Positions 16,503 through 16,974 of a stretch of 64,000 bases of DNA are shown one piece after another. The notes below the pieces were generated by a model. The model worked only from the letters and a program-made list of their open reading frames with translations. It did not search any database and had not been told where the DNA came from. Origin of the DNA: a virus; the IMG/VR virus record IMGVR_UViG_3300025015_000010, positions 96,001-160,000 of that record. One strand, 5' to 3'. Position numbers and translations under genes: made by a program. Position 1 is the stretch's first letter; each line of letters opens with the position of its first letter.

Positions 16503-16974
16503 AACTGGCCATGCTTGTTCTAGATCAGAGTTGATCTTCGGGTAACCATCCCGTCCCTTCGCCGTGCAGACTAAAGATATGGCATTTACATCGACCTCGC
16601 GTGTGGCACTTTTGCACTCGTCTTTCGCGTGTCGATTTTAGACGACTAGATCAGAACTTAGTCTTGATCAGATCCACTTATTGACTGATGTTTCTGCCAT
16701 AGTTTATTTCCGGCGATATCTGTCGTGAGCTACAGAGGAGAAAATTCCCAGCAAGCTTAGCTTTAACTAGTGTATGGCTAGGCTTGTTTTCCCGTGTCAC
16801 AGATCTCGGCTTTGAGGCTTTTGTCGCATCGCCGTTTCTTGGAGCAGCCCGGTGGTCCATTTCTAGGTGGAGCGAACAATTTTGTGTTGCTTATCTCCGT
16901 TTTTGACACAGCACAAGAGTCTAGACTGTTGATCGCTCATGGATACGGCCAGTTGCCAGCCGCTGGACTGCACG
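16503..16974 (-). ncRNA. candidate large structured ncRNA (about 470 nt)
   Basis: no credible CDS; many nested inverted repeats and crossing terminal helices. Confidence 0.55.

What the first reader, a model, noticed from the sequence alone, without database searches (positions are those of the whole stretch)
16503..16974. Candidate large pseudoknotted ncRNA of about 470 nt
Seen: a gap in an otherwise wall-to-wall coding region, filled with nested complements (TATGGCA/TGCCATA, ATCGAC/GTCGAT, CGGCGAT/ATCGCCG, ATCTGT/ACAGAT, CAAGC/GCTTG, GAGCGA/TCGCTC, AGATCA/TGATCT). Two crossing end helices occur: 16503-16512 with 16945-16954 (a G-U pair only on the minus strand) and 16563-16569 with 16968-16974. 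I could not match it to tmRNA, RNase P or intron consensus. Inference: a new large phage RNA in the size class of ROOL/GOLLD-like RNAs.
Basis: partly seen in the sequence, partly recalled or inferred. Interest (0 to 1): 0.8.

Follow-up and report, generated by a model that had tools for sequence, protein, structure and literature searches.

The report
Phage array of stem-closed small RNAs
The flagged stretch is real conserved non-coding DNA in a groundwater phage, but it reads best as part of a promoter-driven row of about seven separately folding small RNAs of unknown function, not as one giant knotted RNA.

Summary
The gap is real and larger than flagged. Window 16449-17444 has no ORF under codes 11, 4 or TAG=Q, and no short ORF survives in a related phage.

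The listed complements exist, but their number equals chance: 24/6/1 complementary 6/7/8-mers against 22.9/5.3/1.4 in shuffles. The 472-nt interval folds no better than shuffles (z -1.1 on minus, -1.7 to -2.0 on plus). Both "crossing end helices" have probability 0.00 in the fold ensemble.

My model is a minus-strand sigma70-type promoter (17288-17260), then a GAAA-tetraloop leader hairpin, then seven stem-closed units of 54-128 nt joined by short linkers. Transcription appears to continue into a 56-aa ORF and a macrodomain gene.

Units differ 6.2% from the relative and linkers 16.9%. Flanking synonymous sites differ 13-42%.

The same promoter-leader module heads a second RNA-rich region upstream of the phage's Ro60 gene, which holds two Y-RNA-like units.

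There is no Rfam match, including ROOL and GOLLD. Only two haplotypes exist, so covariation is thin, and transcription is untested.

Other first-reader notes in this scan had already read this same stretch as a promoter-driven array. The scan also reported Ro60-linked stem-closed RNA arrays on other DNA.

The parts
17260..17288 (-). Sigma70-type promoter: TTGACA (17288-17283), 17-nt spacer, TATAGT (17265-17260). Predicted start is near 17254.
   Evidence: Consensus scan gives 11 of 12 matches. Both hexamers are unchanged in L002, L053 and L054. The same promoter plus leader is found upstream of the Ro60 operon and twice in L002.
17225..17240 (-). 5' leader hairpin, 6 bp with a GAAA tetraloop
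   Evidence: Four copies fold alike on the promoter-sense strand (-9.9, -6.6, -9.7, -9.2 kcal/mol). On the opposite strand they give -8.4, -0.1, -6.8, -2.8. One pair runs U-A / U.G / C-G across the copies.
17103..17209 (-). Unit U1, 107 nt, closed by a 13-bp stem
   Evidence: Found as inverted repeat I1. z -3.25. Closing-stem probability is 0.99 in both phages. The L002 change at 17204 gives G.U on minus and C.A on plus.
17036..17096 (-). Unit U2, 61 nt, 14-bp stem with a large loop
   Evidence: z -3.8; p 0.97 in both phages. The substitutions fall in the loop.
16978..17031 (-). Unit U3, 54 nt, 16-17-bp stem. Its loop is expanded by a ~22-nt duplication in L002.
   Evidence: (z -8.4).
16844..16971 (-). 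Unit U4, 128 nt, with a 7-bp closing stem. It holds a conserved hairpin with three G.U pairs (16963-16945) and a variable inner hairpin (about 16858-16944). Tentative.
   Evidence: Closing-stem p is 1.00/0.99 and hairpin p is 0.96/0.96. The unit's z is only -0.5. The variable patch differs 14% and has indels. In L002 the inner helix 16917-16909/16889-16881 has p 0.97 on minus.
16711..16834 (-). Tentative.
   Evidence: Closing-stem p is 0.97/0.91. z -1.5. Inner helices are not stable between the two phages.
16578..16701 (-). It is among the best-conserved units.
   Evidence: 102 nt (16600-16701) are identical in L002. All inner helices have p 0.77-0.99 in both phages. z -2.6. The paired L002 changes at 16702 and 16577 add an A-U pair next to the closing stem.
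16471..16567 (-). Unit U7, 97 nt, with a 14-bp closing stem and three hairpins (a four-way junction). The loop of the third hairpin carries CUCCUUUU.
   Evidence: strand folding gives z -4.41 and MFE -43.3. p is 0.97/0.90. The changes at 16563 and 16509 convert G.U to A-U; the change at 16477 breaks one pair.
16278..16448 (-). 56-aa ORF directly downstream, probably co-transcribed
   Evidence: The frame is kept in L002 with pN 0.046 and pS 0.135. No minus-strand terminator was predicted between the array and this ORF.
15794..16309 (-). Macrodomain-like gene downstream
   Evidence: The alignment shows the conserved NxxGxxGAGLA and PTKALN...HLSW blocks, read as a macrodomain from my own knowledge. 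It hits phrog_335 'phosphatase' at 5.6e-10. There is no Pfam hit.
17445..17711 (-). 88-aa ORF upstream of the promoter
   Evidence: An 88%-identical homolog, P0005, sits in other phage contigs without the RNA region after it.

Best explanation
Window 16503-16974 is the middle and 3' part of a roughly 780-nt non-coding transcript on the minus strand, running from about 17254 to about 16471.

A host-type sigma70 promoter starts it. A GAAA-tetraloop hairpin caps the 5' end. Seven independently folding modules of 54-128 nt follow, each closed by its own terminal stem. Four (U1, U2, U3, U7) are strongly supported and three (U4-U6) are tentative. Short, mostly A/U-rich linkers of 4-15 nt separate them.

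No terminator follows, so transcription probably runs on into a 56-aa ORF and a macrodomain gene.

I infer that the precursor is cut in the linkers into several stable, end-clamped small RNAs that act in trans as protein-binding scaffolds or decoys. The phage's RNA-repair and counter-defence genes lie next to it (Rnl1-type RNA ligase, CCA-adding enzyme, macrodomain, NMNAT-like). The model for this is the RNA-rich region under the same promoter-leader module upstream of the phage's Ro60 gene, which holds two Y-RNA-like units.

Shown: the region is non-coding; it is under purifying selection; the strand is minus; the local closing stems are present in both haplotypes.

Inferred: transcription itself, processing into separate RNAs, and any function.
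For: Non-coding status.

Selection:
- Units differ from L002 at 6.2% of positions, or 4.1% without the variable hairpin and the U3 loop. Linkers differ at 16.9% (Fisher p 0.005 and 0.0005).
- Synonymous sites of the flanking genes differ 13.5-42%, and non-synonymous sites 3-4.6%.

Strand:
- All neighbouring genes are on minus, and the promoter is on minus.
- The leader hairpin is kept in four copies on the sense strand only.
- L002 keeps the minus-strand fold energies: leader -9.9 to -6.6, U1 -38.2 to -37.4, the 16503-16977 part -131.9 to -137.7. The plus-strand energies fall: -8.4 to -1.1, -44.3 to -36.7, -147.2 to -139.6.
- Real substitutions disrupt fewer pairs of the window-only minus fold than randomly placed ones do (12 against 17.1, P 0.033). 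There is no such effect on plus.

Units:
- Closing stems have p 0.90-1.00 in both phages, apart from U3 at 0.98 in the window and 0.58 in L002.
- z-scores are U1 -3.3, U2 -3.8, U3 -8.4, U7 -4.8 (or -4.4 by strand folding), and the whole 770 nt -6.6.
- The changes at 16509 and 16563 make A-U from G.U in U7.

Analogy: the same promoter-leader module precedes the ORF-free stretch upstream of Ro60. The Y-RNA motif pair UGGUNCGRA...ACUUGACY occurs only twice in the genome, both there.

The locus recurs in several groundwater assemblies: L038-L040, L053 and L054.
Against: - Only two haplotypes exist. L053 and L054 are mosaics of them, so no pair shows an independent double compensatory change inside the array.
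- In the high-confidence helices I count 5 pair-keeping changes and 3 disruptive ones.
- U4-U6 rest on 7-bp closing stems, which individually are chance-level, and their z-scores are weak (-0.5, -1.5, -2.6).
- I chose the unit boundaries from the fold, so the unit z-scores are somewhat favoured.
- Low divergence could partly reflect recent recombination, which clearly happens here.
- The units share no common handle or motif, and no partner protein is identified.
Confidence: 0.55

Rival explanations
1. This is the reader's model: one large RNA of about 470 nt (or the whole ~780 nt) with long-range and pseudoknotted helices, in the ROOL/GOLLD class, possibly forming higher-order assemblies.
For: Its size and phage origin fit what is described for ROOL and GOLLD, which are encoded in phages and prophages, often near tRNA islands (PMC12286853). 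The relative L002 has a tRNA-Leu next to the region. The whole region folds better than shuffles (z -6.6). The two end helices exist in the sequence.
Against: - There is no Rfam hit to ROOL, GOLLD or any other family, even up to E=10.
- The helix count is at chance.
- The 472-nt interval has z about -1 to -2.
- The end helices have p 0.00 on minus.
- The changes at 16509 and 16563 give A.C in those helices on the minus strand, but A-U in local U7 helices.
- The inter-unit linkers evolve about as fast as synonymous sites, which would be unusual for junctions of an integrated fold.
Confidence: 0.1
2. It is a long structured 5' untranslated leader that acts in cis on the downstream 56-aa, macrodomain and following genes. 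It would give mRNA stability, set processing sites or control translation, without releasing functional small RNAs.
For: No terminator lies between the array and the ORFs. A 5' hairpin directly after the start site is a known mRNA stabiliser (my own knowledge). The Ro60 gene likewise follows its RNA-rich region without an evident break.
Against: About 780 nt of sequence constrained at the level of non-synonymous sites is far more than stability or translational control usually needs. The modular, end-clamped design with fast-evolving linkers resembles tRNA or Y-RNA precursors. Another strong promoter at 15877 already serves the genes further downstream.
Confidence: 0.2
3. It is a DNA-level element (replication origin, packaging or recombination site). 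Alternatively it is a decaying gene or spacer whose similarity between the two phages reflects recent exchange rather than selection.
For: Mosaic haplotypes show frequent recombination across the region. A 975-bp cassette is inserted right at its upstream edge in L002.
Against: - No iterons or direct repeats are present.
- Conserved units alternate with linkers diverged at the synonymous rate over tens of bases, which recent exchange does not explain.
- Strand-specific G.U-type changes in the leader, U1 and U7 point to RNA pairing.
- No frame remnant is shared with L002.
Confidence: 0.08

Closest known systems
Y RNA arrays next to Ro60/Rsr (YrlA/YrlB, Yrn1; Chen et al. 2014, PMC4201824), including this phage's own Ro60-linked RNAs
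   Same: Both are small RNAs of 80-150 nt whose 5' and 3' ends pair in a long terminal stem. In Mycobacterium smegmatis, several are cut from one precursor upstream of a protein gene. In this genome the identical promoter and GAAA-hairpin leader head both regions. U7 carries GGCGAAG (the GNCGAAN0-1G pattern) at nt 5-11 of its terminal stem.
   Different: - The array lies about 70 kb from the Ro60 gene and on the other strand, whereas Y RNAs lie within about 4 kb on the same strand.
- The UGGUNCGRA...ACUUGACY handle of the phage's own Y-like RNAs is absent.
- There is no YrlA or YrlB hit at E up to 10.
- The first G of the U7 motif is A in L002.
- The units share no common handle.
ROOL and GOLLD large ornate phage RNAs (Rfam families; PMC12286853, PMC5737381)
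   Same: They are encoded in phages, have unknown function, span hundreds of nucleotides, and sit in a tRNA and RNA-metabolism neighbourhood.
   Different: No covariance-model match was found. There is no supported long-range or pseudoknot pairing. The conservation pattern is modular, with fast linkers.
Highly transcribed non-coding regions upstream of an Rsr-like gene in Listeria phage CKA15 (PMC12282133)
   Same: A large virulent phage with several abundant candidate ncRNAs of unknown role, discussed by those authors as possible Y RNAs. The helicase of this phage finds Bacillus phage SP-15 and Listeria phage LIS04 among its best, though distant, matches.
   Different: That case comes with transcript data and Rsr linkage. 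This one has neither. No sequence similarity was tested or seen.
tRNA gene arrays with co-transcribed small stable RNAs in large phages such as T4 (from my own knowledge, not checked here)
   Same: A polycistronic precursor of compact, end-paired RNAs separated by short spacers, close to the RNA ligase and CCA-adding enzyme genes.
   Different: No unit is recognised as a tRNA at ARAGORN's default or 80% thresholds or by Rfam. The phage's five tRNAs lie elsewhere in the genome.

Membership tests
ROOL / GOLLD | Match to the Rfam covariance model of the family | tested here: not met
   There are no hits at gathering score over the whole window. Neither family appears among hits with E up to 10 in 16000-17700.
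ROOL / GOLLD | One integrated multi-pseudoknot fold supported by covariation | tested here: not met
   The proposed crossing helices are at chance level and have p 0.00. The L002 changes contradict them on the minus strand. With only two haplotypes, the power of this test is low.
ROOL / GOLLD | Encoded in phages or prophages, often near tRNA islands | tested here: inconclusive
   It is a phage record. The window has no tRNA. L002 has a tRNA-Leu beside the region.
Y RNA (YrlA/YrlB/Yrn1) | 80-150 nt with a long stem formed by the 5' and 3' ends | tested here: met
   U1, U4, U5, U6 and U7 are 97-128 nt and each has a terminal stem.
Y RNA (YrlA/YrlB/Yrn1) | Ro60-binding motif (GNCGAAN0-1G or GGUCCGA-like) in the 5' strand of the terminal stem | tested here: inconclusive
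   Only U7 has GGCGAAG. In L002 it reads AGCGAAG. The phage's own Y-type handle is absent from the array.
Y RNA (YrlA/YrlB/Yrn1) | Encoded within about 4 kb of the Ro60 gene on the same strand | tested here: not met
   Ro60 is at genome 41664-43313 on plus. The array is at genome 112471-113254 on minus.
Y RNA (YrlA/YrlB/Yrn1) | Match to the Rfam YrlA or YrlB models | tested here: not met
   There is no hit in 16000-17700 at E up to 10. For comparison, the Ro60-linked region gives YrlB at E 0.13, which is below threshold.
tRNA / tmRNA / RNase P RNA / group I or II intron | Detection by ARAGORN or by the Rfam models | tested here: not met
   ARAGORN relaxed to 80% finds nothing in the array, and at 60% it gives only scattered noise.
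Protein-coding gene under an alternative genetic code | An open frame under a recoded stop, preserved in relatives | tested here: not met

The most novel reading that the evidence does not exclude
The array encodes a set of previously undescribed phage small RNAs, or one assembly built from them. Together with the Ro60/Y-RNA operon under the same promoter-leader, it would form an RNA-based arm of the phage's takeover or counter-defence programme. U7 is one example: a cloverleaf-like RNA with a Y-RNA-type GNCGAAG stem motif and an exposed anti-Shine-Dalgarno-like CUCCUUUU loop, which could act as a decoy or scaffold for host RNA-binding proteins or nucleases.
Probability: 0.15. Interest if true: 0.7.

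Novelty: new variant of a known kind. Interest (0 to 1): 0.4.

Why it matters
Large phages are turning out to carry many non-coding RNAs whose roles are unknown. ROOL, GOLLD and phage Y RNAs are examples.

This phage devotes about 0.8 kb here to sequence constrained as tightly as protein-coding positions, and about 1 kb more upstream of its Ro60 gene. Both are driven by one shared promoter-leader cassette, and this one sits among RNA-repair and NAD-related genes.

If the units are released as stable RNAs, they would be a new set of phage small RNAs, with a ready-made comparison (the Ro60-linked set) in the same genome.

The case also carries a caution. Lists of short complements in a 470-nt stretch are expected by chance and should not define RNA boundaries.

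Tried and rejected
- Alternative genetic codes for a hidden gene: rejected.
- Conserved small ORFs: rejected.
- Rfam at gathering score and up to E=10: only noise hits such as mir-582, Ref1C and PreQ1, all far below threshold.
- tRNA-like units: ARAGORN at default and relaxed settings gives nothing credible.
- GenBank phages by blastn: no match.
- Protein anchors in IMG/VR (macrodomain, 88-aa protein, RNA ligase): no close relative. The best RNA ligase match is 38%.
- Five exact-word scans of IMG/VR with conserved blocks and the leader: searches found nothing, and the hits were chance, as checked.
- Two genome-contig scans: nothing.
- nhmmer of the two-haplotype alignment against all loci and the whole genome: only the leader copy.
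- Covariance model of U7 against the genome: it finds only itself.
- Searching with the translation of a spurious ORF: nothing at first. An exact cluster look-up then gave L053 and L054, which proved to be mosaics with no new substitutions.
- The P0005 contigs share only the 88-aa gene, and their whole records could not be searched.
- A count of G.U against A.C pairs over all stems of 8 bp or more was uninformative (32 against 27, within background).
- RNAalifold on two sequences is uninformative, because it avoids inconsistent pairs by design.
- The CGRA...GGUUAYC co-occurrence at 19810-19828 lies in an unstructured spacer (z +1.8) and was dismissed.

Full report
**Setting**

The window is bases 96001-160000 of a 168.7-kb IMG/VR phage record with estimated completeness of 77%. 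Identical or near-identical copies occur in groundwater metagenome assemblies.

All genes around the finding lie on the minus strand: 18250-18507, 17826-17993, 17445-17711, then 16278-16448 (56 aa) and 15794-16309 (macrodomain-like). Divergent plus-strand genes start at 18618 with an Rnl1-type RNA ligase. A CCA-adding enzyme follows at 20680.

**The observation**

The gap is real and runs from 16449 to 17444. It has no credible ORF under code 11, code 4 or TAG=Q.

There are 24, 6 and 1 complementary 6-, 7- and 8-mer pairs, against 22.9, 5.3 and 1.4 in dinucleotide shuffles. Coding controls of equal length give 28, 7.7 and 2.2.

The 472-nt interval is not unusually stable. Its z-score is -0.92 on minus and -1.99 on plus by strand folding, and -1.1 and -1.67 in my own run.

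Rfam finds nothing at gathering score in the whole window and only noise up to E=10. ARAGORN finds nothing.

**Relatives**

Cultured phages and IMG/VR hold no close relative. One JGI metagenome contig, L002 (2857 bp), was found through the macrodomain protein. It aligns to 17306-16131 at 89.8%.

An exact look-up of spurious ORFs that gene callers had placed in the region gave two more contigs, L053 and L054. Both are mosaics of the window and L002 haplotypes and add no new substitutions. All comparative evidence therefore rests on one pair of haplotypes.

**Is it non-coding and constrained?**

Every short ORF in the region is broken in L002. The one exception is a 45-aa plus-strand frame whose changes are mostly non-synonymous.

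Flanking genes differ at 13.5-42% of synonymous sites and 3-4.6% of non-synonymous sites. The ORF-free region differs by 3.7-4.8% in most blocks. A variable patch (16858-16944) differs 14% and has indels, and the loop of one hairpin has a duplication.

So most of the region evolves like non-synonymous sites.

**Strand and start**

A sigma70-type promoter (TTGACA, 17 nt, TATAGT) lies at 17288-17260 on the minus strand. It is one of many similar promoters in the genome, and both hexamers are unchanged in all relatives.

It is followed by a 6-bp hairpin with a GAAA tetraloop. The same promoter-plus-leader occurs twice in L002 and once at genome 40692-40765. All four hairpin copies fold alike on the promoter-sense strand (-9.9, -6.6, -9.7, -9.2 kcal/mol). 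On the other strand they give -8.4, -0.1, -6.8 and -2.8. One pair runs through U-A, U.G and C-G across the copies.

L002 keeps or improves the minus-strand fold energies of the leader, of U1 and of the 16503-16977 part, but loses 7-8 kcal/mol in each on the plus strand.

Against the window-only minus-strand fold, the real substitutions disrupt 12 pairs where random placement disrupts 17.1 (P 0.033). The plus strand shows no such effect.

I take the RNA to be on the minus strand, with about 85% confidence.

**Architecture**

Folding the full minus-strand region in both phages gives a row of locally closed units:

| Unit | Coordinates | Closing stem |
|---|---|---|
| U1 | 17209-17103 | 13 bp |
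| U2 | 17096-17036 | 14 bp |
| U3 | 17031-16978 | 17 bp |
| U4 | 16971-16844 | 7 bp |
| U5 | 16834-16711 | 7 bp |
| U6 | 16701-16578 | 7 bp |
| U7 | 16567-16471 | 14 bp, four-way junction |

Closing stems have probability 0.90-1.00 in both sequences, apart from U3, which has 0.98 in the window and 0.58 in L002.

The z-scores are -3.3, -3.8, -8.4, -0.5, -1.5, -2.6 and -4.8 in that order. The whole 770 nt gives -6.6. U7 gives -4.41 with the standard tool.

U1-U3 and U7 are therefore solid, and U4-U6 are tentative.

Both have probability 0.00 on the minus strand. L002 changes one base in each, 16509 and 16563. On the minus strand these changes give A.C mismatches in the long-range helices. In the local helices of U7 (16517-16509/16496-16488 and 16567-16554/16484-16471) the same changes convert G.U to A-U.

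**Conservation pattern**

I fixed the unit borders from the window's fold alone and then counted changes. The seven linkers carry 10 changes in 59 nt (16.9%) and the units carry 44 in 711 nt (6.2%); Fisher p is 0.005. Leaving out the variable hairpin and the U3 loop, the units carry 4.1% and p is 0.0005.

Linkers that drift at about the synonymous rate between constrained modules fit an array of separate RNAs. They fit poorly with one integrated fold, and poorly with simple recent exchange.

**Context and mechanism**

The second copy of the promoter-leader module heads an ORF-free stretch of about 950 nt that ends at a Ro60 gene (TROVE plus vWA domains). That stretch contains the only two occurrences in the genome of the Y-RNA handle UGGUNCGRA...ACUUGACY, at 41451-41544 and 41565-41635. 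It also gives a weak YrlB hit.

Y RNAs are 80-150-nt RNAs with paired ends. In M. smegmatis they are cut from one precursor upstream of the Ro60 gene (PMC4201824).

By analogy, I propose that the window's transcript is a precursor of several end-clamped small RNAs, and that transcription then reads through into the 56-aa and macrodomain genes, since no terminator was predicted. Processing and function are inferred, not shown.

The units are not Y RNAs by the tests available. They lie about 70 kb from Ro60 on the other strand, they share no handle, and they give no model hit. Only U7 has a GNCGAAG-like motif, and that motif is altered in L002.

**Limits**

There are two haplotypes, no double compensatory change inside the array, and no expression data. 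The host is unknown.

**Verdict**

This is a genuine, conserved, unclassified non-coding RNA locus.

First-reader notes on overlapping windows of this genome (e1-5729699, e1-5729719) reached a similar reading. I tested that reading here. The scan has also reported Ro60-linked stem-closed RNA arrays on other DNA.

Noticed in passing
G000:C1:40692-43313 (L014:1693-4314), about 54 kb before the window: The phage encodes a Ro60/Rsr protein (TROVE plus vWA domains). It is preceded by about 950 nt without ORFs under the same promoter and GAAA-hairpin leader. Two units (41451-41544, 41565-41635) carry the Y-RNA handle UGGUNCGRA...ACUUGACY, and a third gives a weak YrlB hit (E 0.13).
   Followed up: partly
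L002:289-1263, inserted at window position 17307: The relative carries a 975-bp cassette just upstream of the promoter. It holds a tRNA-Leu(UAA) in the opposite orientation, two small ORFs and a second copy of the promoter-leader module. This tRNA is not a copy of the phage's own tRNA-Leu at genome 62576-62659.
   Followed up: partly
window 16027-16130 (against L002 near position 2453): L002 lacks roughly 100 nt of the macrodomain gene, including the conserved PTKALN...HLSW block. Its copy may be inactive or misassembled.
   Followed up: no
window 57193-57221 and 62608-62690; L002:651-754: A long G/C-capped palindrome in the L002 cassette has partial copies at two places in the window. This suggests a dispersed palindromic element.
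   Followed up: no
window 18010-18069 and 18073-18246: A perfect 13-bp hairpin (local fold z about -4) and a G+C-rich unit closed by a 14-bp stem lie between minus-strand genes next to the RNA ligase. They may be further end-clamped RNAs. L002 does not reach this region.
   Followed up: no
window 16488-16517 (minus) and 16493-16534 (plus): The loop of U7's third hairpin carries CUCCUUUU, which resembles an anti-Shine-Dalgarno sequence. Its complement on the plus strand reads as AAGGAG plus an ATG heading a 7-codon frame, probably by coincidence.
   Followed up: no
L053 and L054 against window 16466-17306: Groundwater contigs are mosaics of the two haplotypes, with breakpoints inside units as well as between them. 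Recombination in this population is therefore frequent.
   Followed up: yes
window 16957-16968 and 17395-17406: There is a perfect 12-nt complementarity between the U4 hairpin and the stretch upstream of the promoter. About 0.2 such matches are expected by chance in 2.7 kb, and L002 has one mismatch.
   Followed up: partly
window 15242-15793: This stretch between the macrodomain and the NMNAT-like gene is absent from L002. It is an indel of about 530 bp that includes a strong minus-strand promoter at 15877-15849 at its edge.
   Followed up: no
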